Below are positions 368 through 47,166 of a stretch of DNA of 47,717 nt, in pieces. The stretch comes from a virus, in the UHGV virus genome UHGV-0097968. One strand, written 5' to 3'. The position numbers and the translations under genes were made by a program. Within the stretch, counting starts at the first letter, position 1, and every line of letters begins with the position of its first letter. The notes under the pieces were generated by a model. It saw only the letters and a program-made list of their open reading frames with translations, was not told where the DNA came from and ran no database searches.

Positions 368-454
368 GCCCGGATGGTGGAATCGGTAGACACAAGGGAT
401 TTAAAATCCCTCGGCGTTCGCGCTGTGCGGGTTCAAGTCCCGCTCCGGGTACCA
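368..454 (+). tRNA. leuZ: tRNA-Leu (anticodon UAA), long variable arm; intact copy, 3' part lies inside attL
   Basis: 87-nt type II tRNA GCCCGGATGGTGGAATCGGTAGACAC...GGGTACCA; anticodon stem AGGGA/TCCCT with loop TTTAAAA. Confidence 0.95.
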
Positions 455-523
455 TGGGAAAGATAAGAATAAAATCAAAGCAATAAGCAGTGTCGTGAAA
501 CCACCTTCGGGTGGTTTTTTTGT
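399..523. repeat. attL: left copy of 125-bp direct repeat (tRNA-Leu anticodon loop to the end of the operon terminator)
   Basis: Sequence 399-523 is identical by eye to 47042-47166; flanks diverge immediately outside (gg vs ca upstream, atcttc vs gcctgc downstream). Confidence 0.85.
499..522 (+). terminator. Rho-independent terminator downstream of tRNA-Leu (copy inside attL)
   Basis: Stem CCACC/GGTGG with TTCG loop followed by T7 run. Confidence 0.7.
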
Positions 524-7778: not shown

Positions 7779-8843
7779 ATGAGTCGTTTGCTGATTAACG
7801 AAAACCCCCTTCAGGTCCTGCCCACGTTGGCATGCACTATAGGGTTGAATGAAGCCATCGTTCTACAGCAAATCCACTACTGGCTGAATTCGTCTCAAAA
7901 TTTCTTCGAAAATCGCCACTGGGTGTACAACAGTGTGACCGACTGGCAAGAACAATTCCCGTTCTGGAGCGAGTCGACAATAAAACGCGTGTTGGCCAAT
8001 CTGGAAAAATTGAATGTGTTGCTTACTGGGAACTTTAACAGTGATGCCTGGGATAAAACCAAGTGGTATTCAATCAATTATGCCCAGTTATGTAAGATTG
8101 AAGAGACAACATTCCCTGTGGCCAATCGATTAGGTCAAGTTGACCCAATCGAAGAGGTCAATGTGACCCAAGCATCAGGTCAAGTTGACCCATGCGCTAA
8201 GGTCAAAATGACCCAATCTCCTACAGAGAATACAACAGAGAGTACTACAGAGATAAAAGATCCCCCTTACCCCCAAAAGGGGGAGGGCGAGGAAATCATT
8301 CTCGCTGACGCTCAAAAAGCTCTGAACTACTACAACGAGAAAGTCGGTACCCGCTGCCGCGACGTTAAACCGTTTGTCATGCTGCTAACTGCCACCACCA
8401 CCCGCGCTGGTTACAGCGTGGCTGAGATTCAGTTAGTAATTCGTTGGGTTATTGCGACATGGCGCCGTCGTAGCGGAAGCGTGCCGAAACCTGCGAACAT
8501 TTGCCGCGTAAACCGGTTTGACGGATATCTGGCTGACGCTGAGGCGTGGGCCACTGCTGAGGCTGCCGTTGACCCTGCTGAAGTTGTGAAGGGCTACAAC
8601 GAGATTCTGGGCGACCTGCTACCTATAGCTGAAATTGATACTGACCGCCGTCGGGCAATCCTGCGCCTGCTGGCACATATGCGCACGCAAACTCTTGGCG
8701 CATTTATCGGCTACTTCGAAAAATTCCGCGATAACGCCCCAGACTTCTATTTCGGCGGCGAATATCGCACCGGCTGGCGGGCAGGGTTTGATTACCTGAT
8801 GAAACCGGAAACGCTGCGTAAAACCAGGGAGGGGGCATTATGA
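7779..8843 (+). CDS. Replication initiator (lambda O-like), origin iterons inside the gene
   Basis: ATG at 7779 with GGAG RBS (the track's 7743 start is a TTG); four iterons within the coding region; stop overlaps helicase start (ATGA). Confidence 0.7.
   Translation: MSRLLINENPLQVLPTLACTIGLNEAIVLQQIHYWLNSSQNFFENRHWVYNSVTDWQEQFPFWSESTIKRVLANLEKLNVLLTGNFNSDAWDKTKWYSINYAQLCKIEETTFPVANRLGQVDPIEEVNVTQASGQVDPCAKVKMTQSPTENTTESTTEIKDPPYPQKGEGEEIILADAQKALNYYNEKVGTRCRDVKPFVMLLTATTTRAGYSVAEIQLVIRWVIATWRRRSGSVPKPANICRVNRFDGYLADAEAWATAEAAVDPAEVVKGYNEILGDLLPIAEIDTDRRRAILRLLAHMRTQTLGAFIGYFEKFRDNAPDFYFGGEYRTGWRAGFDYLMKPETLRKTREGAL
8133..8215. repeat. Origin-of-replication iterons (4 copies of GGTCAANNTGACCCA, period about 22-23 bp)
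   Basis: Copies at 8133-8147, 8156-8170, 8178-8192, 8201-8215 inside the initiator gene. Confidence 0.7.
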
Positions 8844-10231
8844 ATCCGGAGGAACTGGAAGCGACCGTTCTCGCTGGTCTGATTAACGGTGGCGCGACGC
8901 CTGACGCGTTTGATGTGATAGCCACCACTCCGGAGGAAGCCTTCAGCATCGTGTTTCACCGCCACGCTTTCAGCGAAATCAAAAAGCAGGCACTGGCGAA
9001 CGGCATGATCGACATGTTGTTTATCAGCGAAGCGCTGGGCGGCTCCAGCCTTGCGGATCTGTCTCAGATATCCCGGATCCCGGCGACGGTACCGAATCTG
9101 AAAGGCTATGCCGGGAAAATGGTGCAGGCCTGGCGGAGCCGCAAAATGGCGGCATTGTTGCAATCTGGTGCTGACGGTATCCGTAACGCTGTAAACCAGA
9201 GTCAGCGTGATGAGGTTATTGAATCTCATGTTGCTCAGGTGCTGGATATGAGCGCCGCTACCGGCACAGTCCAGCCGGTACACATCAAAGAGCTGTTACC
9301 ACTCTACATTGACACCGTTGATAAACGGATGTCTGGTGACGCGCAGGAAATGATGCTGAAAACCGGAGTCGAGGATCTGGATGTCGCCCTGGGCGGTATC
9401 AACATGACCGACCTTGTTGTGGTTGCCGGTCGTCCAGGCATGGGGAAAACGGAATTTACCCTGAAGATTATCGATGGCGTTACCGCAGATGGCGGAGGCG
9501 CACTGTTTTTCAGCATGGAAATGGGCGCTCAGCAGATTGTTGAACGTACCGTTGCCGGGGCTGGGAATATGTCCTCATCGCGTCTGCGTAATCCAAAAGA
9601 AATGGACGATGAGGACTGGTCTCGATTAACCGCCGCGCTTGCAATCATGCAGGATCGCGATATCTGGATTGTTGATGCCACTGATTTGACGATTGAGCAG
9701 ATCCGCGCCATTGCAGAGACTCATAAACGCCGTTATCCGCACCTGAAGCTGATTGGTGTTGATTACATGGGCCTGATCAAAAAACCTAAGGCCGAGCGCC
9801 ACGATCTCGCGGTCGGGCATATCTCACGAAACATGAAGACTATGGCCATGCGTCTGCATACCCCTGTTTTTGCTCTTAGCCAGCTTTCCCGCCAGGTGGA
9901 TTCTCGACCTGCTGGCCAGCGTCGCCCGGTGATGTCGGACCTGCGCGATTCCGGCAGTGTTGAGCAGGACGCTGACAGCATTTTGTTTTTGTATCGCGAT
10001 GAAGTTTACACAACTGATTCACCTGCAAAGGGTATCGCCGAGGTGATTATCGGTAAAAACCGTTCTGGCGGGGCAGGTGAAATTATTTATCAGGAATTCA
10101 GGAATGGGCATTTCCTGCCAGTTGATCAACACGTAGCACGCGAAAAATTACGCATCCAGAAGGAGGCAGAACAACCGAGAAAACGTGAAAAACGGTATTC
10201 AAACAAAAACTTTAATACGGACCCCTTTTAA
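8840..10231 (+). CDS. DnaB-family replicative DNA helicase
   Basis: 463 aa; Walker A GRPGMGKT, motifs GVDYMGLI, SQLSR, DLRDSGSVEQDADSILFLYRDEVY typical of DnaB C-terminal domain. Confidence 0.9.
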   Translation: MNPEELEATVLAGLINGGATPDAFDVIATTPEEAFSIVFHRHAFSEIKKQALANGMIDMLFISEALGGSSLADLSQISRIPATVPNLKGYAGKMVQAWRSRKMAALLQSGADGIRNAVNQSQRDEVIESHVAQVLDMSAATGTVQPVHIKELLPLYIDTVDKRMSGDAQEMMLKTGVEDLDVALGGINMTDLVVVAGRPGMGKTEFTLKIIDGVTADGGGALFFSMEMGAQQIVERTVAGAGNMSSSRLRNPKEMDDEDWSRLTAALAIMQDRDIWIVDATDLTIEQIRAIAETHKRRYPHLKLIGVDYMGLIKKPKAERHDLAVGHISRNMKTMAMRLHTPVFALSQLSRQVDSRPAGQRRPVMSDLRDSGSVEQDADSILFLYRDEVYTTDSPAKGIAEVIIGKNRSGGAGEIIYQEFRNGHFLPVDQHVAREKLRIQKEAEQPRKREKRYSNKNFNTDPF

Positions 10232-10269
10232 CCACGCCTGACCAGCGTGAAATAACCGAGGAAAGACCA

Positions 10270-10680
10270 ATGACCACCACTCCAGGCAAATTAGAGTACC
10301 CGTCGGACAAAGGACACATAGATGACGGTAAAAACTATCTCGACGTCATTTTGTGGAATATGAACGTCGGGCCACGTGCGCGCACTCGTGCGGTTTTTGT
10401 GCCAAGACCCAAAGCCGGCAATTTTTCAACCCCTGCTCAACCAGCCCGTCAGGCATCCGTAACCGCAGCGCCAGCAGTGAAACGTAAGGGTAAAACGCAC
10501 ATCGGGATCGCGATTCGCAGAAATGGTGAGCGGCAAGTGAAACTCCACGAAACAGCGACAACCTGGTGTGCCTCACCGCATGAAACTTACGACAAGATAA
10601 CCGGGCAGCGAATTGGTGCGCCCGGTCGCTGTCGCCTGCTGCTGAGTTCCATCACTCCGATAGCAAAGAAAGGGACGTGA
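10270..10680 (+). CDS. Hypothetical protein
   Basis: 136-aa ORF preceded by the conserved element ending ACCGAGGAAAGACCAATG. Confidence 0.5.
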   Translation: MTTTPGKLEYPSDKGHIDDGKNYLDVILWNMNVGPRARTRAVFVPRPKAGNFSTPAQPARQASVTAAPAVKRKGKTHIGIAIRRNGERQVKLHETATTWCASPHETYDKITGQRIGAPGRCRLLLSSITPIAKKGT

Positions 10681-10681
10681 T

Positions 10682-10918
10682 ATGGCAGGGCAATCAGATT
10701 ACCTGCCGCCCGGCTTACCACACAACCGCGCCAAATGGCCTCAGGAATACCTGCTTAAAGAGCACTACGACATGCGAGCGGCGACGCTTATCCGCCAGCT
10801 CTTTGAAAAGCGTATTCCGAGGGGAAGCGTGATTGAGCAAATCGGAATGACGCCGGATACATACCGGGAATTTTTCAGAGAGCGTCTGAACTACTGGAGA
10901 GGGGTGATGGAACAATGA
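10682..10918 (+). CDS. Hypothetical protein
   Basis: 78-aa ORF, start overlapping upstream stop. Confidence 0.5.
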   Translation: MAGQSDYLPPGLPHNRAKWPQEYLLKEHYDMRAATLIRQLFEKRIPRGSVIEQIGMTPDTYREFFRERLNYWRGVMEQ

Positions 10919-11226
10919 AATACAAACGGTGGGTGCGTGCGGAAGTCGTAATCATCAAACAATGTGCGGGCAGCATGACAGTTGAACGTATAGGGCAGCT
11001 TATTGGCAGAACCGGTGCAGCGGTACGCACAAAAGCGCGCGAGCTGAAAATCTGTATGTATCTGCGGGGTAATTATCACCAGTCAGCAAAATACTGCCAG
11101 GAGGATATCGAGCTGGCAAGGGAATTACATCAGTCGGGTATTAATCGCCAGGATATCGCAGAAAAACTCGAAATGCCTATCGGAGCGGTGAATCAGTTTG
11201 TTTATTTTGAGCGGAGAATTTCATGA
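10915..11226 (+). CDS. Putative DNA-binding protein with two HTH-like segments
   Basis: 103 aa; segments MTVERIGQLIGRTGAAVRTKAREL and GINRQDIAEKLEMPIGAVNQFV. Confidence 0.5.
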   Translation: MKYKRWVRAEVVIIKQCAGSMTVERIGQLIGRTGAAVRTKARELKICMYLRGNYHQSAKYCQEDIELARELHQSGINRQDIAEKLEMPIGAVNQFVYFERRIS

Positions 11227-11447
11227 AAGAACTTTTTCTTGCATTTGTGCCCCGGTTTATTAATGACCAGATAGCACTGACTGATAATGGTGAACAATAT
11301 GAAATTGCCTGCAGCATGGTGGATGTGAATCCTGGCGAACGGTATGACGCGATGTGTGACCTGAAAATATTTACCTGGCTGGGTTGGGCTATTCCGTGTG
11401 GAGAACCAACCAATATTCGCCCGTTTGAGGGCAGGGAGGCGGTATGA
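11223..11447 (+). CDS. Hypothetical protein
   Basis: 74-aa ORF, start overlaps upstream stop. Confidence 0.45.
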   Translation: MKELFLAFVPRFINDQIALTDNGEQYEIACSMVDVNPGERYDAMCDLKIFTWLGWAIPCGEPTNIRPFEGREAV

Positions 11448-11514
11448 GTGTGTTGCCGCTGGCATTCGTATCAAAGAAGAGTGAGATGGTAGCTTAGAAC
11501 ATCGGTAATTTTCA

Positions 11515-11568
11515 TTGACGTGATTATAACCTAAGGTTATCATCAAAATACTGTACATTTATACAGTG
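11515..11568 (+). promoter_or_regulatory. Promoter with palindromic operator and LexA (SOS) box upstream of the colicin-like gene
   Basis: TTGACG 11515-11520; 15-bp perfect palindrome ATAACCTAAGGTTAT 11526-11540 in the spacer; -10 TATCAT 11538-11543; LexA box TACTGTACATTTATACAGTG 11549-11568 (CTGT-N8-ACAG). Confidence 0.7.
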
Positions 11569-11623
11569 CTTAGAGGGTGATTCTCTAATATCTCTGGGAA
11601 ATAATTAATAGAAGGAAGTAGAT

Positions 11624-12775
11624 ATGGCATGGACTGGATTTGGTGGTCAATGGAATAACGGTGTGCATTCTGGCGGTGATGATTCTGGCAGTATAGGCGG
11701 TGGGGGCATAAAACTTGACGGCAAAGGGAATCCTGTAGGTACTCGTGCGCCGACTGCTGAGGAGATCGCATCACAATGGAATAGCTTTGGAGGTAGTCAG
11801 ATTAAACCCAGTGATGTATCGAACATCAGACCGGATGGTGAAGGTACTTATCAGGCTAACATTGCAGGTAATTACCACGTTGTAAGTTCGCAGGGCGCGA
11901 ATACCCCATTTGCTTCGGAACGTAGCAACGTTGCGGCAGGTTTTAGTGGTGGTGTGGGACCAACGCCTGATGGAAGGGGTAACAATAGTGCACCCAGCAA
12001 TCCAAAGGCTGAGGCCGAGGCAAAGAAATGGATTGAAACAGTCAAGGCTGTTCGGGCTGGTAATATCCCCTACGGTTATGTTCTTAACGACGGCAAGGTA
12101 GGCGTAAACGTGCCTCAATATGTTGAACGCCGCAAAGGTCGTGGCGACACATATACCGTTCGGGGTAAAGATTTGTTTGTTGTTTCGCCTGAACTGACAA
12201 AAGCGTATCAGGATGGTCTTGCGGAACGTGCTGAGATTCTGGACGCCGTCAAATTTACGTCTGATTTCTATAAAGACCTTGCAGGTAAATTTGGACAGCA
12301 TAACGCGAACATCGCAAAGGAACTGGCGGAGGCTGCAAAAGGCAAGAAGATTCGTAACAGCAAAGATGCACTGGCGGCGGTGGATAAATTTAATAACCGA
12401 CTGAGTAAAAAGTATGGAGCCAAAGACCTTGAGGCAGTTGCCAGGGCTTTGGAATCGGTTAACCGGGATGCAATGGCGAAGAATTTGTCTAAATTTGGTA
12501 AGGCATTTGGTGTCGCAAGTTATGCTGTCGATGCTTACAATGTTCTTTACATTGAATTTCCGAAAGCTATTCGTACCAAAAACTATCGCCCAATGCTTGT
12601 TAAGTTGGAGGCAATTCTTCTTGGTGCTGATGCTGGTATTGTTGCTGCGTGGGCATTTAGTGCGCTTCTGGCAACGCCGATGGGTATTCTGACGTTTGCG
12701 CTTATAATGGCATTGCTAAGTGCGATGATTAATGAAAAACGCATTGAGGAACTGAATAAGTTCTTAGGGATTTAA
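11624..12775 (+). CDS. Colicin E1-family pore-forming bacteriocin (short, 383 aa; Gly-rich N-terminal domain, C-terminal channel-forming domain)
   Basis: Gly-rich N-terminus MAWTGFGGQWNNGVHSGGDDSGSIGGGG; C-terminal domain with GKKIRN, KFGKAFGVAS, RTKNYRPMLVKLEAILLGADAGIVAAWAFSALLATPMGILTFALIMALLSAMINEKRIEELNKFLGI (hydrophobic hairpin and terminal NKFxGI) matching my recollection of colicin E1/Ia-type pore domains; SOS box in promoter; GAAGGAAG RBS. Confidence 0.85.
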   Translation: MAWTGFGGQWNNGVHSGGDDSGSIGGGGIKLDGKGNPVGTRAPTAEEIASQWNSFGGSQIKPSDVSNIRPDGEGTYQANIAGNYHVVSSQGANTPFASERSNVAAGFSGGVGPTPDGRGNNSAPSNPKAEAEAKKWIETVKAVRAGNIPYGYVLNDGKVGVNVPQYVERRKGRGDTYTVRGKDLFVVSPELTKAYQDGLAERAEILDAVKFTSDFYKDLAGKFGQHNANIAKELAEAAKGKKIRNSKDALAAVDKFNNRLSKKYGAKDLEAVARALESVNRDAMAKNLSKFGKAFGVASYAVDAYNVLYIEFPKAIRTKNYRPMLVKLEAILLGADAGIVAAWAFSALLATPMGILTFALIMALLSAMINEKRIEELNKFLGI

Positions 12776-12795
12776 CCGTTATCAGTAGTAACAAG

Positions 12796-12818
12796 GGCCA
12801 CGTCATGTGGCCTTTTTT
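12796..12818 (+). terminator. Rho-independent terminator after the colicin-like gene
   Basis: Stem GGCCAC/GTGGCC, loop GTCAT, then T6; the immunity gene stop codon lies inside the loop on the other strand. Confidence 0.6.
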
Positions 12819-13147
12819 GACAATTGAATATAAATAATAGACAGGAGGCCAATGGGAATGGAAAAAATAAAAAGAATACCGTGGTATAAACCCATTACCC
12901 CGCTTTTTAAACAGGTGTCTGTCCACGCTCCTGTTACCCATGATTCGGATGTTGTATATTTGAGGACGATGTTTTCTACAGCTTTTTTTGCATATGGGAA
13001 CAAGAAACAACTAATAACAGAAAGCATAACCAAATAATCCCATATCCACAAATCGCCTTCAGCTATGGCCTGATGCCACCTGAAAACCGTCATGCCGAGA
13101 AATACGCATCCGTACAGGATGTTGCTCAAATAATATCGAAATGTCAT
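12803..13147 (-). CDS. Colicin E1-type immunity protein (3-TM inner-membrane protein), convergent with toxin gene
   Basis: 114 aa; MTFRYYLSNILYG..., FPYAKKAVENI..., SIPIGLLSIIYI resemble ImmE1 (MSLRYYIKNILFG..., CPYSKYAIEYI..., AIPFGLLGLF) by recollection; three hydrophobic segments; opposite-strand arrangement typical of pore-former immunity genes. Confidence 0.8.
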   Translation of the reverse strand: MTFRYYLSNILYGCVFLGMTVFRWHQAIAEGDLWIWDYLVMLSVISCFLFPYAKKAVENIVLKYTTSESWVTGAWTDTCLKSGVMGLYHGILFIFSIPIGLLSIIYIQLSKKAT

Positions 13148-13444
13148 CTATGTTCCTTAAGTGTAGAACTCGTCTGACTGTTTTAACCATCCAGAACTCT
13201 ATGAATAACATAACATACCAGTCGTTACGAGAGTACAAGAAAACAATTGGTGATGTTTCTGTATCCGAAATATATCAAATAATAGATATTAAGAATAGTT
13301 GCCTAATATCTATTTGAAGTGTTTATGGATAATATCTATGACGACGAATTGTTCGCAGGGTTTATTGCAAGAGGGGAGCTACATGGTGTTGAGTACCCAC
13401 TGAATGTAGAGAATGTGAACACAGGCTGTTTGAAGTTGATTGAA

Positions 13445-13473
13445 TTGACTTAGAAAAAGTCCGGGGCTATAGT
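13445..13473 (+). promoter_or_regulatory. Candidate sigma70 promoter for a small RNA
   Basis: TTGACT 13445-13450, 17-bp spacer, TATAGT 13468-13473. Confidence 0.45.
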
Positions 13474-13479
13474 TTCCGC

Positions 13480-13556
13480 GCAGCCGCAAAATCGGTTGCC
13501 GGGATTTGCACCCCGGATATCTAAAAGGCGACAACGACGCGCCAGCGTCTTTTTTA
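13480..13556 (+). ncRNA. Candidate about 77-nt small regulatory RNA upstream of the antirepressor gene (C4-like/antisense-type)
   Basis: Promoter immediately upstream; hairpin GCAGCCG-CAAAAT-CGGTTGC; hairpin CCGGG-ATTTGCAC-CCCGG; terminator stem GACGC/GCGTC with GCCA loop and T6 at 13536-13556; loop sequence has a complementary and a direct copy in the antirepressor leader. Confidence 0.4.
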
Positions 13557-13715
13557 TTGTCGTGCGCACAGCCACATCCGCGATTTATGGTGGGGCGTGT
13601 AGGGGAGTCGAAAGGCTCGCCGGGTCCTTTTAGCCGGTAGTGCAAACCCTGCATGTCTCACCACCCAAAGATTTGCACCTGAGGGGGGTGATTATCCGAC
13701 TAAAAGGAAATCGCT

Positions 13716-14510
13716 ATGACAACTCAAGTATCCGCAGCAGCCATCTCCCCGATTATCCACAACCAACTTCCCGTCCTCACCACCGAATTACTCGCGAACC
13801 TCTATGGCACAGAGCCGGATTACATTCGTAAAAACCATAACCGGAACTCAGAGCGATTCGTGGTCGGGAAGCATTACTTTTTGCTCGAAGGTGAGGAGTT
13901 GCGCGAATTTAAGCACAGCATGTCTTTAAGACCTCCTGTGAAAATCGCCAGAAATGTCCGCTCTCTCATCCTCTGGACAGAACGCGGCGCAGCTCGCCAT
14001 GCCAAAATGCTGGAAACAGAACAGGCCTGGGAAGTTTTCGAAAAGCTGGAAGATTGTTATTTTAGCCAGCGTCCAGAGAGGCGGAGTACAACTACCGATG
14101 ACCGTACTCCCTTACGTGATGCCGTTAATATGCTGGTCGGTAAGAAAGGCATGATGTATCCCGATGCCTACACCATGATTCATCAACGCTTCGCCGTCTC
14201 TCACATAGAACAACTGTCACAGACGCAAATGTTAGAGGCGATTGAATACATCCACTGCCTGCTACTCGATGAAAATCAGCCAACCATTCCGGATTTTTCT
14301 TTTATCACCACTATCAAAAATGGAAAAGTGACAAGGATGCGCCATGTTGCCAAAGGCGAACATCTGATGACCTTTGACGCTTTCAAAGAGATCGCTGAGC
14401 GGGCAGGGTATCTGGTGATCCACAGCGACAACCTGCGAAGTATGACGCTGGATAAATTGATGCTAATGGGGGAAAAGTCGGCTGTATCCGTTGCTGATTC
14501 AGCATTTTGA
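13716..14510 (+). CDS. Putative antirepressor (ORF6N-like N-terminal domain)
   Basis: 264 aa; N-terminal region ISPIIHNQLPVLTTELLANLYGTEPDYIRKNHNRNSERFVVGKHYFLLEGEELREF resembles ORF6N/Ant-type domain by recollection; RBS AAAAGGAAA. Confidence 0.6.
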   Translation: MTTQVSAAAISPIIHNQLPVLTTELLANLYGTEPDYIRKNHNRNSERFVVGKHYFLLEGEELREFKHSMSLRPPVKIARNVRSLILWTERGAARHAKMLETEQAWEVFEKLEDCYFSQRPERRSTTTDDRTPLRDAVNMLVGKKGMMYPDAYTMIHQRFAVSHIEQLSQTQMLEAIEYIHCLLLDENQPTIPDFSFITTIKNGKVTRMRHVAKGEHLMTFDAFKEIAERAGYLVIHSDNLRSMTLDKLMLMGEKSAVSVADSAF

Positions 14511-14541
14511 CAGGTTGAATGTTTGGCGCGGTTATACTCTA

Positions 14542-14618
14542 TTTGCGCTTAAAAAGGTATTTAGTCACAACCAGCACGAGGCCGAATACTCTGTCAAAGT
14601 ACCGCCCATGTAAAACTG
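14542..14618 (-). pseudogene. Frameshifted 3' fragment homologous to the C-terminal end of the 18140-18745 membrane protein gene
   Basis: 77 bp with about 90% identity by eye to 18144-18220; minus-strand translation starts MGGTLTE then loses frame through a 1-bp deletion. Confidence 0.5.
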
Positions 14619-14687
14619 TAACGTATGTACTTGATGACTAAGCTGGCACCAGGTTAACACCAGGCGCCAGCTTGAAGGAAACTTCAG

Positions 14688-15611
14688 TTATTGGTTTCTG
14701 AGGAAAGCGATTCTTGAAAGGGTCATTTGCGTCTGGCAGTCGAGCATTTTCTTGACTTCAGCATCTGTTCCCTGCATTGAAACTTTACCGCACATAGCAT
14801 CCTTAGTTTTGATCCACTGACGCTGAGAAGGCAGCAAATCTTTTTTCTTCGCCGGGGTTAACTTGCTCCAGACGGTACTCAAATCAGAGTCGGCATTCGC
14901 AAATGCCATTCGGGACTGATCAAGGCTGTCAGCTTTTTGTGGCTGAAGTTGTGCCTGTCTCTCTATTTGCTTCTCCGCCTCATACTTAGCCTGTTCCTGC
15001 GCCCTGAGTTGCACCTGTTGTTCCGCTTCAATTTGGCTCTGTTGGGCATCCTTAGCCTGCTGGATTTTCTGCTGCTCAACGATCGGGTTGATAATAGAAA
15101 GTGATGTCAGTAAAGCGGCGCCCACTGATATCGGATTATCAGAAGAGGTTTTTACAAAAACGTTTTTCTGATCGTCGGTCGCCTGCACGGTGTAGGTGAT
15201 ACGTTTGGAAAAGGCGTTTGCGTTGTTCTCCAAAAACAGGCTTTCCATTTGCTTGTCGAGATTACGATTAAAATTCTTTCTGTAAGCATCTGAAAGCTGG
15301 ACGTACTCGTTCGCAGGTAGAGTCATCGTCACGGTCCCTTCACAAGTTTTCATTGTGCTGCCCGTGTCACTTGATGTTGTGGAGATTTCAGAGACGGCTA
15401 GTTTGATCTTGTCCAGTGTGCTTCGTTTGGTCTGATTAGTGACATCAGGGTATTTATCGACCTGTTCAGAGAGTCCTTCATAAGCAGATTTTTTTAATAA
15501 ATCCATGAGAGCTGATTGGGTCATTTCCGAAGAACAACCGATCTCATCTTTTTTGTTATCACAGCCTGTAAGGGCAATGGCGAGTAAGAGTACTGAGTAT
15601 TTTAATCTCAT
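14688..15611 (-). CDS. Lipoprotein with C-terminal DUF1311/LprI-like domain
   Basis: 307 aa; signal peptide with lipobox LTGC; Gln-rich coiled-coil middle; C-terminal motif WSKLTPAKKKDLLPSQRQWIKTKDAMC...C typical of DUF1311 by recollection. Confidence 0.75.
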   Translation of the reverse strand: MRLKYSVLLLAIALTGCDNKKDEIGCSSEMTQSALMDLLKKSAYEGLSEQVDKYPDVTNQTKRSTLDKIKLAVSEISTTSSDTGSTMKTCEGTVTMTLPANEYVQLSDAYRKNFNRNLDKQMESLFLENNANAFSKRITYTVQATDDQKNVFVKTSSDNPISVGAALLTSLSIINPIVEQQKIQQAKDAQQSQIEAEQQVQLRAQEQAKYEAEKQIERQAQLQPQKADSLDQSRMAFANADSDLSTVWSKLTPAKKKDLLPSQRQWIKTKDAMCGKVSMQGTDAEVKKMLDCQTQMTLSRIAFLRNQ

Positions 15612-16237
15612 GAATTCCCTTTAGAGTAAGGATTGGTTTTTAAGACGCGGTCTGTAATCAGTTCCGAGAGCTACAGTAAACAACGCTGAGCACTGAACGC
15701 ATCACAGGCAAGGTAAAAGGTGATATCGGCAAAGGCTGTGAAACCTTTAATTCAACAGATGGGAACGGTATGCGCAGGATCCTGTAACGACGCTCCCAAA
15801 ACCGGAAACCTGTAAGGCATGTTTTCGCTGCTGAACTTAATATACGAACCTGCACTATCATGAACATATTTTTTATCGTTATACCCCGAGTGATTGTGCC
15901 CGGCAATGGATAGTGTCCTGGAGGAACTATTTCTACTGTAAAAGGTAGACATTTAATTTCAGTGTGGAATTATTCCCTGCTGTTAATAACCATGGCTCTA
16001 TATGGCACCGAGCGGACTAGTTAACTTGCCTGAAAGCCGCTATGAGTGAGGAGCGAATATTGGCACGAGAGGATACCTGAACCATTTTTTGGACATGCGC
16101 TAAAAGCGAATGATTAGTTTTATCGGAATATTTACAGTATACTTACAAGGCAAGCTTGGCGTGCCGTCTTGGGCGAGATTGCTTAAATTATTTTGTGGAT
16201 ATATCATTCAAACAAAAGATAATAAAATGAGGTTGTT

Positions 16238-16435
16238 ATGTCATATATTCGCGTAGAGAAAGATGGCCTTCAGTATGAAGCAGAATACTTCCGTGAAGAG
16301 GATATGGTCACAGTCTTTGGGGTTAGAGGAGGGCATTCCAGCGTGGTTCTAAATGGAATGACAGAAGTCGCGGCTGCTCGTACTGCGTTACGAAATCTTA
16401 TTAGAGAAAATCAGGTTGATCCTCTAACTGATTAA
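16238..16435 (+). CDS. Hypothetical small protein
   Basis: 65-aa ORF with GAGG RBS; AT-rich surroundings. Confidence 0.45.
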   Translation: MSYIRVEKDGLQYEAEYFREEDMVTVFGVRGGHSSVVLNGMTEVAAARTALRNLIRENQVDPLTD

Positions 16436-16639
16436 AAATAAGCCATCTTAACTGAGAGCATATTTTGATATAATTTAGATTAAATCTATTTTGAAGGTTA
16501 GTTTGGGATGAGAAGATTACATCAAAACCGTTATTACTAGCAATAAGTTGTGTAAATCAAATAATACATAATCATGTGGTAACATATACTAAGCGTAGTA
16601 AAGTTTTTATATATTCCTGTAACTTTGTGAGAAACTTCC

Positions 16640-17305
16640 ATGAAAGCCGACAACTTAAGAATTATAGAGAATGGCAAATATGTTTTCGATATGTTCTTGG
16701 ATACTGGTGAATTTTACTATACAAGTCATGCCTTTGACACGAGAGAAGATGCAAAAAGCTGGATGGAAGAATGGCAGATTTGGGCAAATAATGTATCGAG
16801 TGGGAAAGTAAGTAGTATTTATTATATTTTACAAGTGCCTGATACTTGGGCCGGTTCTTCAGATAAAAATAACCCTTACTCGGGACTTTATGTGAAAATA
16901 GGGCGTTCCAATAATGTGCTAAAAAGGTTGTCTAACCTGCAGACAGGTGCATTTGGTCAATTAATATTACACGCTTTGGAACCTGGTGGTTCAGAAAAAG
17001 AAAACTATCTTCATGAAAAATTTAGCAACGAAAGACGTCAAGGTGAATGGTTTGTTTGTACTAAGGAACTTACCAAGCATATATTTACAACATGGTTTAA
17101 AAACAAAATGCTCCCACCAGAACATCAAATAAAAATAATGCAGCTCGCAGAAAGAATAGGTATTTATTCGCATGTTCATACACTAATGGGGGGGAAGCCA
17201 GACTTAGTAAACCCATCTATTAGTGAACCTTGGGAATGCGAAAAATATGTTTTGGTTGATATGATTTATAGCTCTTTAGCAAAGCAAGTTAATCATAAAA
17301 AATAA
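16640..17305 (+). CDS. T5orf172 (GIY-YIG-like) domain protein with unassigned N-terminal domain
   Basis: 221 aa; GLYVKIGRSNNVLKRLSNLQTG ... ENYLHEKFSNERRQGEWF matches the T5orf172/MUG113 signature (KIG..., LQTG, LH..F...R..GEWF) by recollection; AT-rich region. Confidence 0.7.
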   Translation: MKADNLRIIENGKYVFDMFLDTGEFYYTSHAFDTREDAKSWMEEWQIWANNVSSGKVSSIYYILQVPDTWAGSSDKNNPYSGLYVKIGRSNNVLKRLSNLQTGAFGQLILHALEPGGSEKENYLHEKFSNERRQGEWFVCTKELTKHIFTTWFKNKMLPPEHQIKIMQLAERIGIYSHVHTLMGGKPDLVNPSISEPWECEKYVLVDMIYSSLAKQVNHKK

Positions 17306-17625
17306 AGTGTTACATTTTAACTATACAATTATTGATTCACTAATGAAGAGGTGATTTAGACGTATGAAGTTTTAATAAGCTCCAAGAATATTTTGTCATA
17401 AATGGGTTAAAGAGTTATATAATAATATCTGCTTCTGGAATACAGCAGACAAGCACCTGCAGATAAAGGTCTGCTGAGAGCGAGAAGCGGATCATACGTT
17501 GGAAGTTGTTTAGGCAAATACGTTATAAACGTATTTGATTAAATTTACTTGGATCATAGTCTTCAATAACGCTTTATTATATTGTTTTTCATGCAGCAAA
17601 CAGGTTTACAGGTAGGTAATAAGCT

Positions 17626-18030
17626 ATGAGTGGATGGAAAGAGTCTTTTACATTAGCAGAACAGATACAATTAGCATTAAATTTAGGTTATGAGGCTGTA
17701 CCAGATGAAGAGGCATATACTGGGGCATACTTCATTAAAGGTGGTAAGAAGTGGATCTTTAACATCATCGGTCTCAAAAAGACATTGAATATATCTTCAG
17801 ATGATGAACTAAGAGGGCAGGATTATGATGTTGATATGTATTTCGAAATTCGCCAAAATTGGGCACAATACCAAGATATGATCTTTGGAAGCGAAGATAT
17901 CACTCCTTCACCTAAAAATGAACTTACTTCAATTTACCATGACCTGCAGGTAACGGATGAACCCAGGGAAATGGTGTATCTTTCTGATGGGATGTGGCTG
18001 GATCCCAACGGACGAATTGTACAACGATAG
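17626..18030 (+). CDS. Hypothetical protein
   Basis: 134-aa ORF in AT-rich accessory region. Confidence 0.45.
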   Translation: MSGWKESFTLAEQIQLALNLGYEAVPDEEAYTGAYFIKGGKKWIFNIIGLKKTLNISSDDELRGQDYDVDMYFEIRQNWAQYQDMIFGSEDITPSPKNELTSIYHDLQVTDEPREMVYLSDGMWLDPNGRIVQR

Positions 18031-18139
18031 CACTCGAACACACTCAGTAATCGTCTATAAGGCCAGCACTTGTTACTTGGTCATTTGGGGTTGCTGGTCT
18101 TCTCCATTAAATCGACTAAAGTCTGTTCCATAGAGAGAG

Positions 18140-18745: not shown

Positions 18746-18754
18746 TCTAAAGCG

Positions 18755-20941: not shown

Positions 20942-20979
20942 ATGACAAATGCCATAAAATACTGTATAAATGTACAGGC
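20942..20979 (+). promoter_or_regulatory. Second LexA (SOS) box overlapping a promoter
   Basis: TACTGTATAAATGTACAGGC at 20960-20979 (CTGT-N8-ACAG); -35 ATGACA 20942-20947 and -10 TATAAA 20965-20970 inside the box. Confidence 0.65.
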
Positions 20980-20999
20980 AATGGCGTTAGGGGGAAGAC

Positions 21000-21179
21000 A
21001 TGAATATTCAAGAATCTATAGGCGAACTACCGGAAACATGCCGGGCTGTTATCAAGCGTAAGGACGGACACATCGTTGGTGTGCGTGTTCTGACTGATGA
21101 TGAACGGATTGCCAGCCTGACGGCGTTTCTCGAGTTGGCAGAAACAGCCGGATATACTATTACACCCCCTGACGCGTAA
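21000..21179 (+). CDS. SOS-controlled small protein (59 aa), candidate antirepressor or SOS effector
   Basis: ORF below the track's 60-aa cutoff, found by reading; strong RBS GGGGGAAG; LexA box 20 bp upstream; terminator-like hairpin downstream (21195-21225). Confidence 0.5.
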   Translation: MNIQESIGELPETCRAVIKRKDGHIVGVRVLTDDERIASLTAFLELAETAGYTITPPDA

Positions 21180-21853: not shown

Positions 21854-22143
21854 AAAAAATCGACCTCAGAAAAGCTGCACGCGGTCGCGCTTGTACTGTG
21901 CGTATCCCCGGTGTGTGTAATCACAATCCGGAAACCAGTGTACTGGCTCACTACCGCCTCGCCGGAACATGCGGAACAGCAATCAAACCACACGATATGC
22001 AGGGCGCTATCGCCTGCAGTGCGTGTCACGATGCTATCGACGGACGTACAAAAACGGATTACGAGCACGACTCATTGCTGTTGATGCACGCTGAGGGAGT
22101 TTTCAGAACACTGGCTATCTGGCGCGATGAGGAGTTTATCTGA
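21850..22143 (+). CDS. DUF1364 (YbcO-like) nin-region protein
   Basis: 97 aa; DLRKAARGRACTVRIPGVCNHNPETSVLAH...IACSACHD resembles YbcO by recollection. Confidence 0.6.
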   Translation: MKKIDLRKAARGRACTVRIPGVCNHNPETSVLAHYRLAGTCGTAIKPHDMQGAIACSACHDAIDGRTKTDYEHDSLLLMHAEGVFRTLAIWRDEEFI

Positions 22144-22814
22144 TGAGTAACGAGTATTTATTGGAATATACCCGCATAAAACTGCGCGCTGCATTGCGGG
22201 ATTTGTCTGGTGGTTCTAAGGGGCAACTGGAAGCATTGTGTGAGCACCCGCCGGCAGACAAAAACGCATACCCACGCAAACATATTCATCGTGTGCAACT
22301 GGAGGACCGGACCGTTGATGCTCTGGTTACGCCAGTTTACGCCCTGGAAAGTTTCAGCAGACGTCGCCCCGCGCCGCCGATGAATGATTTTGAATTTGCT
22401 GATTCATCCTGGCGGCGTTCTGTGAACTCGCTGGATGCAAGTCAGCAAGCGTGGTTGCGCTATTGCTACGGTGGTAACCTGGCGTTCAAACACCAAACAG
22501 CTATTTGTGAGGCTGTCTGGAGTCGCTATAAAGGAAACATCCCCGCGTCAACTCAGAGAAAAGTAGTCAAGCGCCTGCTTTCGCTGGTGTGGTTGTCCGT
22601 GCAGGCGGTCGCAGCAGCAAATAAACGCGAGGATTTTAAGGAGATGGCCGGATCTGCGCTAGCTGGAATGTTGTCTGTTTCTCGCTCCACCTGGTGCGAA
22701 ACATACTCCCCGCACTGGGCAGGAATGAAAGAGGCGGTGAGAGCACTTGATGAAGTGGCACTTCTTGCAACTTTGCATCATTATCAAAACCATTTAGACG
22801 ACGTTTGCGTATAA
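22143..22814 (+). CDS. Putative late-gene antiterminator (Q-like) by position
   Basis: 223-aa ORF immediately upstream of the late promoter region and holin gene; no family motif confirmed. Confidence 0.4.
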   Translation: MSNEYLLEYTRIKLRAALRDLSGGSKGQLEALCEHPPADKNAYPRKHIHRVQLEDRTVDALVTPVYALESFSRRRPAPPMNDFEFADSSWRRSVNSLDASQQAWLRYCYGGNLAFKHQTAICEAVWSRYKGNIPASTQRKVVKRLLSLVWLSVQAVAAANKREDFKEMAGSALAGMLSVSRSTWCETYSPHWAGMKEAVRALDEVALLATLHHYQNHLDDVCV

Positions 22815-22926: not shown

Positions 22927-23310
22927 ATGTCTGAACCTCTAACCGCTGGCGTTGCTGCTGGCTCGGCGGGGGTGACGTTTGCTGCGTTATTTCCTGAGGC
23001 AACACCTGCAGTGATGATCTGTGCGCTGGCAGGCGCAGCTCTCTATGTGTTGTCATCCGGGCAGCATCGATTCTGGAAGCAGGTTATTTTCGCACTCATT
23101 TCGTTTGTTGGCGGTGTGTATTGCGCTGAGACAGCGTCAGCAATCATTACCGGTATTCTGAATGCGATGCTGAGTCACCTGAACCCTCCCGTAACAGTAA
23201 AAGTCTCTCCCGCCATTGGTGCACTGGTTGCATCAGTAATCAGCGTTACATCACTGTTGCGGATCATGTCACAAGCTCGTTTATGGAAATCAGATAAGGG
23301 GATGAAATAA
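22927..23310 (+). CDS. Holin
   Basis: 127 aa with three hydrophobic segments and charged C-terminus; first gene after Q-like. Confidence 0.7.
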   Translation: MSEPLTAGVAAGSAGVTFAALFPEATPAVMICALAGAALYVLSSGQHRFWKQVIFALISFVGGVYCAETASAIITGILNAMLSHLNPPVTVKVSPAIGALVASVISVTSLLRIMSQARLWKSDKGMK

Positions 23311-23582
23311 TGACCCTGCACTCTGTCCTCATCAATGCCAATGCAATTATTTGTCTGATGCTGGCACTACGGTTGATGTTTTTTCAAAAAACAGGCCGCT
23401 ATCGTTTTTTTATCTCACTAACTGCTTACCTGGCGATTCTGTCTGCTGCGTGGATAGCCCTACGAATTTTTTACGGGAAATATACGCAGGTTGATCCCGC
23501 AGAGTTTTTTCTCAACCTCACCATCTGTATTGCTGTCTGGCGGGCACGAGGGAATATTTCAAAAATAACAGGAGACAGGTAA
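23310..23582 (+). CDS. Small membrane protein (second holin/antiholin-like)
   Basis: 90 aa, two hydrophobic helices, overlapping start/stop with neighbours. Confidence 0.55.
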   Translation: MTLHSVLINANAIICLMLALRLMFFQKTGRYRFFISLTAYLAILSAAWIALRIFYGKYTQVDPAEFFLNLTICIAVWRARGNISKITGDR

Positions 23583-24064
23583 TGACCGATCCTAAATGGC
23601 TAATTGAGGCTCGAAAAAACCTCGGCATTCGGGAAATGAAAGGGAAGCAACATGCTGCAGAAATTGTGCAGTACTGGAAAGATATCAAACGCGGCGGCAT
23701 TAAGGATGACGAAACACCGTGGTGCGCTGCTTTCACCGGGGCAATGCTGGAACGTGCGGGTATTCGCTCAACGCGTTTTGAGTCTGCGAATTCTTATCTC
23801 GATTGGGGTAATGAACTGAAGGAACCCGCCTATGGATGCATTGCTATTCTGTCTCGGTCTGGCGGTGGTCACGTTGGCTTTGTTGTCGGGAAAAATGCCG
23901 CCGGGGATTTAATGATTTTGGGTGGTAACCAGGCAGATGAAGTAAATATCAAAGCTTTTTCTCGTTCCCGCATAACAGGCTATCGCTGGCCTGTTGATGT
24001 GCTGGATGTGCCGTCAACCTTGCCGCTGCTGATGGGAGGTGAATTATCAACTTCGGAGCAGTAA
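23582..24064 (+). CDS. Endolysin, Cys/His peptidase type (TIGR02594/CHAP-like)
   Basis: 160 aa; conserved Cys (PWCAAF) and His (GGHVGFV) spacing typical of CHAP/NlpC-P60-like endolysins. Confidence 0.65.
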   Translation: MTDPKWLIEARKNLGIREMKGKQHAAEIVQYWKDIKRGGIKDDETPWCAAFTGAMLERAGIRSTRFESANSYLDWGNELKEPAYGCIAILSRSGGGHVGFVVGKNAAGDLMILGGNQADEVNIKAFSRSRITGYRWPVDVLDVPSTLPLLMGGELSTSEQ

Positions 24065-24066
24065 CC

Positions 24067-24258
24067 ATGAAAAAGTTCTTTCTACTGGCAGCGTTGGTGC
24101 TTGCGGGTTGCTCAAACACGACGTACACGGAAGCAACGCATCCCAACGGCACGACCGTAAAGCACATTTCTATCGCACCGGGTACGAAGAGCACAACCGC
24201 AAGTGGTGGCTGTATCGACTCTACCGGGGCTGCGGCTTCATGCCCATTGGATCAATGA
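24067..24258 (+). CDS. Small lipoprotein (possible o-spanin-like or entry-exclusion lipoprotein)
   Basis: 63 aa; signal peptide with lipobox LAGC; additional Cys residues; follows endolysin. Confidence 0.55.
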   Translation: MKKFFLLAALVLAGCSNTTYTEATHPNGTTVKHISIAPGTKSTTASGGCIDSTGAAASCPLDQ

Positions 24259-47041: not shown

Positions 47042-47166
47042 ATTTAAAATCCCTCGGCGTTCGCGCTGTGCGGGTTCAAGTCCCGCTCCGGGTACCATGG
47101 GAAAGATAAGAATAAAATCAAAGCAATAAGCAGTGTCGTGAAACCACCTTCGGGTGGTTTTTTTGT
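47042..47166. repeat. attR: right copy of the 125-bp direct repeat (3' fragment of tRNA-Leu plus terminator)
   Basis: Identical by eye to 399-523; contains only the 3' 56 nt of the tRNA (47042-47097) plus the terminator hairpin. Confidence 0.85.

What the first reader, a model, noticed from the sequence alone, without database searches (positions are those of the whole stretch)
11515..13147. Prophage-borne, SOS-controlled colicin E1-family pore-forming toxin with convergent ImmE1-like immunity gene and no lysis gene
The 383-aa ORF at 11624-12775 combines a Gly-rich N-terminal region with a C-terminal domain whose hydrophobic hairpin and terminal NKFLGI match my recollection of colicin E1/Ia-type channel domains. 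A 114-aa 3-TM protein resembling ImmE1 is encoded convergently, its stop codon inside the toxin's terminator loop. The promoter carries a near-consensus LexA box (TACTGTACATTTATACAGTG) plus a 15-bp perfect palindrome between -35 and -10, suggesting a second regulator. I found no BRP/kil-type lysis lipoprotein in 13148-13715, so release may depend on the prophage's own holin-endolysin cassette after SOS induction. The toxin is much shorter than colicin E1 and lacks its long coiled-coil receptor domain, so receptor and translocation route are unknown.
Basis: partly seen in the sequence, partly recalled or inferred. Interest (0 to 1): 0.85.

Follow-up and report, generated by a model that had tools for sequence, protein, structure and literature searches.

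The report
Prophage-carried colicin and immunity gene pair
An E. coli prophage carries an intact, uncharacterised colicin-type pore-forming toxin gene and its immunity gene behind a DNA-damage-controlled promoter but with no release gene, so the phage's own lysis genes probably release the toxin.

Summary
ORF 11624-12775 (383 aa) ends in a colicin pore-forming domain (Pfam PF01024, E 2e-45). It is closest to colicin Ib (about 49% identity), then pyocin S5, Ia and E1. The convergent 114-aa ORF 12803-13147 passes the Pfam threshold for E1-type immunity proteins and has three hydrophobic segments. Its stop codon lies in the loop of the toxin's terminator.

A sigma-70-like promoter is followed by a LexA box, and LexA boxes recur upstream of most relatives. 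No lysis lipoprotein lies next to the cassette.

The pair is a 1.9-kb cargo cassette (11456-13392) in the early-right region of a 46.6-kb lambdoid prophage at tRNA-Leu (leuZ) of E. coli. Related E. coli prophages have 349 unrelated bases there.

The same proteins are in NCBI under automatic names. They were absent from 5,426 complete E. coli genomes, 50,697 phage records and 72,556 plasmids. I found no paper describing them.

Relatives sit in other prophages, one directly after a lysis cassette. Precedents are the Klebsiella "telocins" and the release of colicin Ib by prophage lysis.

The proposed second-regulator palindrome is weakly supported. The import route is unknown.

Verdict: a new member of a known kind, moderately interesting.

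The parts
11456..13392 (.). Colicin/immunity cargo cassette (moron) as delimited by comparison with related prophages
   Evidence: An E. coli prophage lacking the cassette (L015) matches the window at 9800-11455 (97%) and 13393-15000 (87%). It has 349 unrelated bases in between.
11515..11543 (+). Sigma-70-like promoter, TTGACG-17 nt-TATCAT
   Evidence: Consensus scan, 10 of 12 matches. Conserved in L001, L010 and L016.
11526..11540 (.). Perfect 15-bp palindrome ATAACCTAAGGTTAT in the promoter spacer; function unproven
   Evidence: It is one of nine 7+1+7 palindromes in the window and is degraded in L010.
11549..11568 (+). LexA (SOS) box TACTGTACATTTATACAGTG, 5 nt downstream of the -10 hexamer
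   Evidence: CTGT-N8-ACAG match. LexA boxes, single or double-overlapping, lie upstream of homologues in L010, L002, L003, L004, L011, L012, L013 and L009.
11612..11618 (+). Ribosome-binding site AAGGAAG, 5 nt before the ATG
   Evidence: Read from the sequence.
11624..12775 (+). Colicin-like pore-forming toxin gene, 383 aa
   Evidence: ORF; PF01024; PDB matches. Identical to NCBI E. coli protein P0045. dN/dS 0.04-0.09.
11624..11758 (+). aa 1-45: Gly-rich N-terminal segment, almost invariant across the family (W3-G8, W10, G17-I29 and others); presumed translocation epitope
   Evidence: Alignment A2 invariant columns. pLDDT below 50. The N-terminal ~25-residue motif is near-identical in the Enterobacter toxins P0040, P0042 and P0043, which also carry ColA_N.
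11762..11950 (+). aa 47-109: module shared with the N-termini of klebicin B-related nuclease bacteriocins
   Evidence: tblastn gives 51% identity to aa ~24-78 of a 773-aa Klebsiella nuclease bacteriocin, in about 400 plasmids. Alignment A1.
12002..12220 (+). aa 127-199: central helix plus beta-hairpin domain; candidate receptor-binding region
   Evidence: The only non-pore region with pLDDT 65-82. Shared with P0027 from aa 136 onward. The family profile match to colicin N starts at profile position 159.
12221..12772 (+). aa 200-383: colicin channel domain with a hydrophobic hairpin at about aa 325-370
   Evidence: Pfam. 8iom colicin Ib E 3.7e-51; pyocin S5, Ia, E1. Foldseek gives the same order. 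Hydropathy.
12793..12818 (.). Intrinsic terminator hairpin (9-bp stem, 5-nt loop, T-run) shared by the two convergent genes
   Evidence: -18.2 kcal/mol, z -3.7.
12803..13147 (-). E1-type colicin immunity gene, 114 aa, three hydrophobic segments
   Evidence: PF03526 above threshold. Full-length alignment with ImmIa 28%, ImmE1 25%, ImmIb 18%. Hydropathy. Identical to NCBI P0044.
13148..13392 (-). AT-rich upstream region of the immunity gene, with RBS AAGGA and a weak candidate promoter (TTGTAC-15-TATGTT with TG)
   Evidence: Read by eye; the consensus scan found no promoter here. Inferred only.
22143..22814 (+). Q-like late antiterminator of the prophage
   Evidence: phrog_304, E 1.5e-76.
22927..24258 (+). 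Prophage lysis cassette: holin, holin, endolysin and a 63-aa lipoprotein (spanin-like); proposed release machinery
   Evidence: phrog_198, phrog_217, phrog_1259/9589 with CHAP. Lipobox ORF 24067-24258.
399..523 (.). attL: 125-nt direct repeat covering the 3' part of tRNA-Leu(taa)
47042..47166 (.). attR: identical 125-nt repeat, followed by E. coli yecA
   Evidence: yecA 100% identical to E. coli.
20960..21179 (+). Second LexA box plus a 59-aa ORF related to the C-terminus of Ant; candidate SOS trigger of prophage induction
   Evidence: phrog_340, which also matches Ant aa 199-240. The repressor 6297-6710 lacks an S24 domain.

Best explanation
This is a functional colicin-type bacteriocin operon carried as cargo by an integrated lambdoid prophage of E. 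coli.

Shown by sequence analysis:
- The toxin has an Ia/Ib/E1-class channel domain.
- The convergent gene encodes an E1-type inner-membrane immunity protein.
- The toxin promoter is overlapped by a LexA box.
- No lysis gene belongs to the cassette.
- The prophage has a complete Q-dependent lysis cassette.
- Both genes are under purifying selection.

Inferred mechanism:
1. In lysogens LexA keeps the toxin gene silent, while the immunity gene is expressed from its own weak promoter and protects lysogens.
2. DNA damage inactivates LexA, so the toxin accumulates in the cytoplasm.
3. The same signal induces the prophage. The likely route is a LexA-controlled small antirepressor, because the CI-like repressor has no self-cleavage domain.
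4. Q-dependent expression of holin, endolysin and spanin lyses the cell and releases virions and toxin together.
5. The toxin enters non-lysogenic Enterobacteriaceae through its conserved N-terminal domains, by a Tol- or Ton-dependent route that is undetermined. It depolarises the inner membrane.
6. Only cells carrying the prophage are immune, so the cassette benefits both lysogen and phage.
For: - Channel domain: PF01024 E 2e-45; colicin Ib, S5, Ia and E1 structures at E 4e-51 to 3e-27; fold search gives the same order.
- Immunity: PF03526 above threshold; full-length alignment with ImmIa, ImmE1 and ImmIb, and conserved convergent partners in L002, L003, L011 and L013.
- LexA: the box lies at the promoter, and LexA boxes recur across the family despite 45-56% protein identity.
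- Selection: dN/dS is 0.04-0.09 for the toxin and 0.17 for the immunity gene.
- Prophage: integrase, att repeats, cI/cro/cII, O, DnaB-like helicase, Q, lysis, terminase, head and contractile tail genes.
- Cassette boundaries.
- No release lipoprotein next to the cassette.
- Relatives in other prophages: after tail fibres (L003, L011, L013), and in L014 directly after Q-holin-holin-endolysin-Rz with no LexA box.
- Precedents: colicin Ib, which lacks a lysis gene, is released by temperate-phage lysis in Salmonella (PMC7374059). Telomere-phage telocins are expressed pore-forming toxin/immunity pairs (PMC12042878).
Against: - No experiment supports toxicity, immunity, LexA binding or release.
- There is one LexA box, whereas several relatives have the double overlapping boxes. 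Repression could therefore be leakier.
- No canonical TolB box or TonB box was found by inspection, so import competence is unproven.
- The structure model is poor (mean pLDDT 51).
- The promoter for the immunity gene is only a weak match read by eye.
- A strong terminator after the toxin gene sits inside the phage early-right operon, and its effect on phage gene expression is unknown.
- Killing potential phage hosts could oppose the phage's interest.
Confidence: 0.75

Rival explanations
1. The cassette is a functional colicin, but phage lysis does not release it. Release would occur by leakage, outer-membrane vesicles or lysis by other prophages. Alternatively the toxin mainly acts within the population, to kill segregants that lose the prophage.
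For: The cassette has its own promoter and terminator and sits in the early region, not in the late operon. In Salmonella only a fraction of ColIb-producing cells express phage lysis genes (PMC7374059).
Against: No alternative release gene is present. Relatives are repeatedly found in prophages, and L014 places one right after the lysis cassette. A cytoplasmic 42-kDa protein without a signal peptide needs some form of lysis to leave the cell.
Confidence: 0.15
2. Expression is governed mainly by the phage, through read-through from the early-right promoter or repressor binding at the promoter palindrome. LexA would play little part.
For: The gene points the same way as the early-right operon. 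The palindrome half-sites TAAC/GTTA resemble the CI/Cro operators TAAC-N4-GTTA found at 6236, 6730 and 6755.
Against: The spacing differs, N5 against N4. The palindrome is degraded in L010, and nine similar palindromes occur in the window. LexA boxes are the conserved promoter feature across the family, including non-prophage loci.
Confidence: 0.07
3. The cassette is a decaying remnant or an anti-phage (abortive infection) module rather than a bacteriocin.
For: The toxin matches no PHROG family and the cassette is rare. It lies near a variable cargo region containing a capP-like gene.
Against: Both ORFs are intact and identical in about 69 contigs. dN/dS is well below 1. Neither protein matches PADLOC. 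The full colicin architecture, with a conserved import-type N-terminus, makes no sense for an intracellular effector.
Confidence: 0.03

Closest known systems
Colicin Ib / Ia with their immunity proteins (IncI plasmids)
   Same: Closest channel domain: about 49% identity to Ib and 41% to Ia over aa 205-383. The immunity gene is convergent and about 111-115 aa. There is no lysis gene. ColIb is SOS-induced and released by prophage lysis (PMC7374059).
   Different: Ia and Ib are 626 aa, with a TonB box and a long Cir-binding coiled coil (my own knowledge). No similarity exists outside the pore domain. They are borne on large conjugative plasmids and are also iron-regulated (PMC7374059). No Fur box is found here.
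Colicin E1 / ImmE1
   Same: Same channel class (E 3e-27) and the same immunity family PF03526, 25% identity over the full length. The immunity gene is convergent.
   Different: ColE1 has a lysis gene downstream (annotated) and sits on a small mobilizable plasmid. It is less similar than Ib, S5 or Ia.
Telocins TelA/TelE of Klebsiella telomere phages (Byers et al. 2025, PMC12042878)
   Same: A phage-encoded pore-forming bacteriocin and inner-membrane immunity protein in a small swappable cassette. The locus is variable between otherwise similar phages.
   Different: Telocins are on linear extrachromosomal N15-like phage-plasmids. ImmA has four helices, and TelA is 97% identical to KpneA/klebicin E. 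They are expressed during vegetative growth. The paper's main text does not mention LexA (0 occurrences). The element here is an integrated lambdoid prophage with an E1-type immunity gene. No INPHARED phage record matched the toxin.
Colicin N
   Same: Similar overall size (383 aa here; 387 aa for colicin N, from memory) and a compact three-part layout. The family profile match to 1a87 extends upstream of the pore domain.
   Different: The match is much weaker (E 4e-12). From memory, colicin N has an A-type channel with a 4-TM immunity protein, is plasmid-borne and has a lysis gene.
Uncharacterised 'colicin-like pore-forming proteins' of about 370 aa in Enterobacter, Atlantibacter and metagenomes
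   Same: Full-length homologues at 45-56% identity, with an almost invariant N-terminal 45 aa, a convergent 111-aa immunity gene and LexA boxes.
   Different: Most are at prophage ends or in chromosomal islets of other genera. None that I found has been characterised.
Shiga-toxin phages (analogy only)
   Same: A toxin gene carried by a lambdoid prophage, with SOS-linked production and release through phage lysis. The relative L014 occupies a comparable late-operon position, between Q/lysis and terminase.
   Different: Stx targets eukaryotic cells and has no immunity gene. In this window the toxin lies in the early region with its own LexA-controlled promoter.

Membership tests
Pore-forming colicins (Pfam PF01024 channel domain) | C-terminal channel domain of about 180-200 aa with a hydrophobic helical hairpin | tested here: met
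   PF01024 E 2.2e-45, profile positions 6-183 of 185. PDB colicin Ib, Ia, E1 and pyocin S5. Hydrophobic stretch at aa ~325-370.
Pore-forming colicins (Pfam PF01024 channel domain) | N-terminal translocation domain with a recognisable Tol (TolB box / TolA-binding) or TonB-box epitope | tested here: inconclusive
   No DG[ST]GW or [DE][TI][ML]xV motif was seen by inspection; these consensus motifs are from memory. There is no Pfam ColA_N hit. However, the N-terminal ~25-residue motif is near-identical in Enterobacter toxins that carry ColA_N. Aa 47-109 also follows a DGTSWSSERG motif, which resembles the colicin A TolB box as I recall it, in a Citrobacter plasmid toxin.
Pore-forming colicins (Pfam PF01024 channel domain) | SOS (LexA)-regulated promoter | tested here: met
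   The LexA box at 11549-11568 abuts the -10 hexamer, and LexA boxes recur in the family. This is sequence evidence only; binding was not tested.
Pore-forming colicins (Pfam PF01024 channel domain) | Cognate immunity gene immediately downstream on the opposite strand | tested here: met
   12803-13147 (-), with 27 nt between the two stop codons and a shared terminator.
Pore-forming colicins (Pfam PF01024 channel domain) | Plasmid-borne operon (classical definition) | tested here: not met
   The cassette lies inside an integrated prophage between attL and attR on the E. coli chromosome. No plasmid carries the cassette.
Pore-forming colicins (Pfam PF01024 channel domain) | Bactericidal activity on sensitive cells from outside | not testable with these tools
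   Requires protein production and spot or killing assays.
Group A colicin operons | Lysis (BRP/kil) lipoprotein gene downstream | tested here: not met
   No lipobox ORF of 20 aa or more in 13100-13720. The window-wide lipobox scan finds only the lysis-cassette lipoprotein at 24067-24258.
Group B colicins Ia/Ib | TonB box plus Cir-binding central domain | tested here: not met
   Similarity to Ia and Ib is confined to aa 205-383.
E1-type colicin immunity proteins (PF03526) | Protein of about 110-115 aa with three membrane-spanning segments and a family profile match | tested here: met
   36.1 bits against a cut-off of 25. Hydrophobic segments centred at about aa 14, 43 and 96. Aligns end to end with ImmIa, ImmIb and ImmE1.
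E1-type colicin immunity proteins (PF03526) | Specific protection against the cognate toxin | not testable with these tools
   Needs expression in a sensitive strain.
Telocins (bacteriocins of telomere phages) | Encoded on a linear N15-like telomere phage-plasmid | tested here: not met
   The element is integrated at tRNA-Leu, with a tyrosine integrase and 125-nt att repeats.
Telocins (bacteriocins of telomere phages) | Toxin and immunity pair in a swappable phage cargo cassette | tested here: met
   The cassette 11456-13392 is replaced by 349 unrelated bases in related E. coli prophages.

The most novel reading that the evidence does not exclude
Temperate phages of Enterobacteriaceae repeatedly pick up lysis-gene-less colicin/immunity cassettes. 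They appear in the early region here, beside tail-fibre genes in Enterobacter-type prophages, and directly after the lysis cassette in L014. The phage would supply the missing release function in cis. An induced lysogen would then fire a dual weapon, virions plus a colicin, to which only carriers of the same prophage are immune. This could be the natural, perhaps ancestral, solution to how colicins without lysis genes are released. It would define an undescribed E. coli colicin type with a new import domain.
Probability: 0.35. Interest if true: 0.7.

Novelty: new member of a known kind. Interest (0 to 1): 0.5.

Why it matters
- Recent genomic surveys list E. coli colicins as plasmid-borne (Table 1 of PMC12546727). 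An intact, selected colicin operon inside an integrated lambdoid prophage adds a new carrier for them.
- The toxin is probably a new colicin type. Its pore domain is at most 49% identical to any solved colicin, and its N-terminal domains are not found in classical colicins.
- The cassette links a lysis-gene-less colicin physically to a phage lysis cassette. That makes an open question stated in PMC7374059 directly testable in one strain: how did colicins without lysis genes come to depend on phage lysis?
- It also bears on phage-host mutualism, since immunity is restricted to lysogens.
- Practically, it offers a compact 383-aa pore-former with a possibly new receptor for narrow-spectrum antibacterial use.

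Tried and rejected
1. DNA-level searches of the cassette found nothing in complete E. coli genomes, phages or plasmids. A tblastn search of phage records also found nothing. The context therefore had to be built from protein look-ups.
2. Fur box: no promoter position matches 11 or more of 19 bases of the consensus. Iron control like that of ColIb is not supported.
3. Promoter palindrome as a prophage CI/Cro operator: the half-sites are similar, but the operators are TAAC-N4-GTTA and the palindrome is N5. This is unresolved and leans against.
4. Palindrome significance: there are nine 7+1+7 palindromes in the window, and this one is degraded in L010.
5. Structure: the AlphaFold2 model from 16 sequences was poor (mean pLDDT 51). 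The fold search recovered only the pore domain, so nothing was learnt about the receptor domain.
6. Central domain and colicin A: I recalled a similarity between the central domain and colicin A, but tblastn at E 0.01 did not confirm it. The ColA_N Pfam domain is absent from this protein. The claim is dropped.
7. Anti-phage defence: neither protein matches PADLOC.
8. Release lipoprotein: none next to the cassette.
9. Literature: I found no paper on a lambdoid-prophage colicin. The library is limited to open-access papers.
Full report
**1. Observation**

The region reads as described. ORF 11624-12775 (+) encodes 383 aa, and ORF 12803-13147 (-) encodes 114 aa.

The toxin's C-terminal half matches Pfam Colicin PF01024 (aa 200-378, E 2.2e-45, 155 bits against a cut-off of 23.4). 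It also matches solved channel domains, in this order:

| Solved structure | E-value |
|---|---|
| Colicin Ib | 3.7e-51 (about 49% identity) |
| Pyocin S5 | 6.7e-42 |
| Colicin Ia | 5.1e-34 |
| Colicin E1 | 2.9e-27 |
| Colicins N, B, A, S4 | 1e-9 to 1e-12 |

The domain therefore belongs to the E1/Ia/Ib class, and Ib is nearer than E1. A low-confidence AlphaFold2 model (mean pLDDT 51) gave the same ranking by Foldseek.

The 114-aa protein passes the Pfam threshold for E1-type immunity proteins (PF03526, 36.1 bits against 25). It has three hydrophobic segments. It aligns end to end with ImmIa (28%), ImmE1 (25%) and ImmIb (18%), taken from annotated plasmids.

The two genes converge on one hairpin at 12793-12815, which is followed by a T-run (-18.2 kcal/mol, z -3.7). 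The immunity stop codon lies in its loop.

**2. Promoter**

TTGACG-17-TATCAT (11515-11543) is one of only two sigma-70-like sites in 11200-13900. The LexA box TACTGTACATTTATACAGTG (11549-11568) starts 5 nt after the -10 hexamer. The window holds three CTGT-N8-ACAG sites against 0.5 expected.

LexA boxes also lie upstream of most homologues that share only 45-56% protein identity. They are single in L004, L011 and L012, and take the classical double-overlapping form in L002, L003, L013 and L009. SOS control is therefore a family trait by sequence.

The 15-bp palindrome (11526-11540) is perfect, but it is one of nine such palindromes in the window and is degraded in the relative L010, whose toxin is 98% identical. 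Its half-sites resemble the prophage operators (TAAC-N4-GTTA at 6236, 6730 and 6755), but the spacing is N5. No Fur box is present. I treat a second regulator as possible but unsupported.

**3. Context**

tRNA-Gly, tRNA-Cys and tRNA-Leu(taa) lie at 152-454. A 125-nt direct repeat (399-523 and 47042-47166) marks attL and attR. The sequence after attR is yecA, 100% identical to E. coli.

Between the att sites lies a complete temperate phage:

- integrase, exonuclease, Gam
- CI-like repressor, Cro-like and CII-like regulators
- O-like initiator with iterons, DnaB-like helicase
- antirepressor, NinB, Q
- two holins, an endolysin, and a 63-aa lipoprotein
- terminase, portal, capsid, and contractile tail genes

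Eight hundred and thirty of 5,426 complete E. coli genomes carry related prophage DNA flanking the site. None carries the cassette. Alignment to one of them shows that 11456-13392 replaces 349 unrelated bases. The pair is thus a discrete cargo cassette with its own promoter and terminator.

**4. No release gene**

No ORF of 20 aa or more in 13100-13720 has a lipoprotein signal. A window-wide lipobox scan finds only the lipoprotein inside the phage lysis cassette.

It holds the immunity gene's upstream region, then a promoter, an isrK sRNA (13480-13555), a C4 antisense RNA (13583-13668) and the ORF6N antirepressor gene. This is a P1/N15-type anti-immunity module.

**5. Is it alive?**

The identical toxin and immunity proteins occur on about 69 and 68 contigs of E. 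coli assemblies. They are auto-named 'colicin-like pore-forming protein' and 'colicin E1 family microcin immunity protein'. Against the relatives L001 and L010, dN/dS is 0.04-0.09 for the toxin and 0.17 for the immunity gene. The genes are maintained by selection.

**6. Family and modularity**

Full-length homologues of about 370 aa occur in Enterobacter, Atlantibacter and metagenomes. The first 45 residues are almost invariant across them.

- Residues 47-109 recur at the N-terminus of klebicin B-related nuclease bacteriocins on about 400 Klebsiella plasmids, and in a Citrobacter plasmid pore-former, where they follow a DGTSWSSERG motif. From memory, that motif resembles the colicin A TolB box.
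- The N-terminal ~25-residue motif recurs near-identically in 485-aa Enterobacter toxins that also contain the Pfam ColA_N TolA-binding domain.
- P0027 shares only aa 136-383 and has a ColA-like N-terminus instead.

This is the usual domain shuffling of colicins. It hints at Tol-dependent import, but this protein has no ColA_N domain. By inspection against consensus motifs recalled from memory, it has no canonical TolB or TonB box. The import route is unknown.

**7. Phage association is recurrent**

Five IMG/VR viral contigs encode relatives.

| Locus | Position of the toxin cassette |
|---|---|
| L010 | Same phage type and same position as the window |
| L011, L013, and E. cloacae L003 | After tail-fibre genes, near the prophage end |
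| L014 | A 485-aa relative and its convergent small ORF lie directly after Q, holin, holin, endolysin and Rz, and before terminase; no LexA box |
| L004, L005-L007 | Chromosomal islets without called phage genes |

No INPHARED phage genome and no PHROG family matches the toxin.

**8. Mechanism**

The steps shown and inferred are set out under the best explanation. Two points support co-induction. The CI-like repressor has only an HTH domain and no S24 domain. A second LexA box (20960-20979) precedes a 59-aa ORF related to the C-terminus of Ant. The same SOS signal plausibly derepresses the toxin and induces the phage, whose lysis cassette then releases the toxin.

This matches published findings that colicin Ib, which lacks a lysis gene, is released by temperate-phage lysis in Salmonella (PMC7374059). 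Here the phage function would be provided in cis.

**9. Comparison and novelty**

The telocins of Klebsiella telomere phages (PMC12042878) already show phage-encoded, expressed pore-forming toxin/immunity cassettes. They sit on linear phage-plasmids, their immunity protein has four helices, and the paper's main text does not mention LexA.

A recent E. coli survey lists all colicins as plasmid-borne (PMC12546727, Table 1). I found no paper describing a colicin on an integrated lambdoid prophage, within an open-access library only.

I therefore class this as a new member of a known kind. It is an uncharacterised colicin type in an unusual but precedented carrier. Its interest is moderate and rests mainly on the testable cis link between a lysis-gene-less colicin and phage lysis.

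Noticed in passing
window 13445-14510: A P1/P7/N15-type anti-immunity module in a lambdoid prophage. It comprises a promoter (13445-13473), an isrK sRNA (13480-13555, 76 bits), a1/b1 target sites (13467-13519), a C4 antisense RNA (13583-13668, 74 bits), and then the ORF6N antirepressor gene 13716-14510.
   Followed up: partly
window 6297-6710 and 20960-21179: The CI-like repressor (137 aa) has only an HTH_3 domain and no S24 self-cleavage domain. A LexA box (20960-20979) precedes a 59-aa ORF (phrog_340) related to the C-terminus of Ant. This suggests Gifsy/186-like SOS induction through an antirepressor.
   Followed up: partly
window 19573-19588: A third exact CTGT-N8-ACAG LexA-type site lies in a 540-bp gap between the capP-like gene and a 92-aa ORF (phrog_3941). 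No obvious regulated gene is present.
   Followed up: no
window 14540-18226: Direct repeats of about 86 nt (14540-14624 and 18141-18226, 92% identical) flank a 3.6-kb low-GC (35-37%) segment. It holds an LprI-like gene, a T5orf172/MUG113 gene and a 134-aa ORF. The relative L001 carries different genes there (methyltransferase, SMEK_N). This looks like a variable cargo hotspot.
   Followed up: partly
window 18140-19243 (-): An M78 peptidase matches PADLOC capP (E 1.6e-25) and lies next to a 201-aa protein of unknown function (phrog_5346). This may be a DNA-damage-responsive regulator of a defence or cargo gene.
   Followed up: no
L014 4007-11857: In an IMG/VR contig, a 485-aa colicin-like toxin and a convergent 98-aa ORF lie directly after Q, holin, holin, endolysin and an Rz-like spanin, and before the terminase genes. 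No LexA box is present. This is a Shiga-toxin-like late-operon position for a bacteriocin.
   Followed up: partly
L003 1-10348; L004 6955-11203: The Enterobacter relatives sit at a prophage end, after tail fibre, umuDC-like and DinI genes and next to a tRNA-Leu-like att remnant (L003). Another is beside icd, which from memory is a known prophage integration site (L004).
   Followed up: no
window 8117-8206: Three or more 22-23-nt iterons (TGACCCAATCGAAGAGGTCAA-like) lie inside the O-like replication initiator gene. This is the presumed phage origin.
   Followed up: no
window 6200-6273 and 6727-6769: Candidate CI/Cro operators TAAC-N4-GTTA occur at 6236, 6730 and 6755, with a degenerate copy at 6200. 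They lie on both sides of the repressor gene in an OL/OR-like arrangement. Four matches were found against 0.6 expected.
   Followed up: partly
window 46401-46820: A 139-aa lipoprotein (phrog_890, lipobox LVGC) is the last gene before attR, a typical prophage-end cargo gene.
   Followed up: no
window 24067-24258: A 63-aa lipoprotein (MKKFFLLAALVLAGC...) lies immediately after the endolysin and matches no PHROG family. It is possibly a unimolecular or outer-membrane spanin.
   Followed up: no
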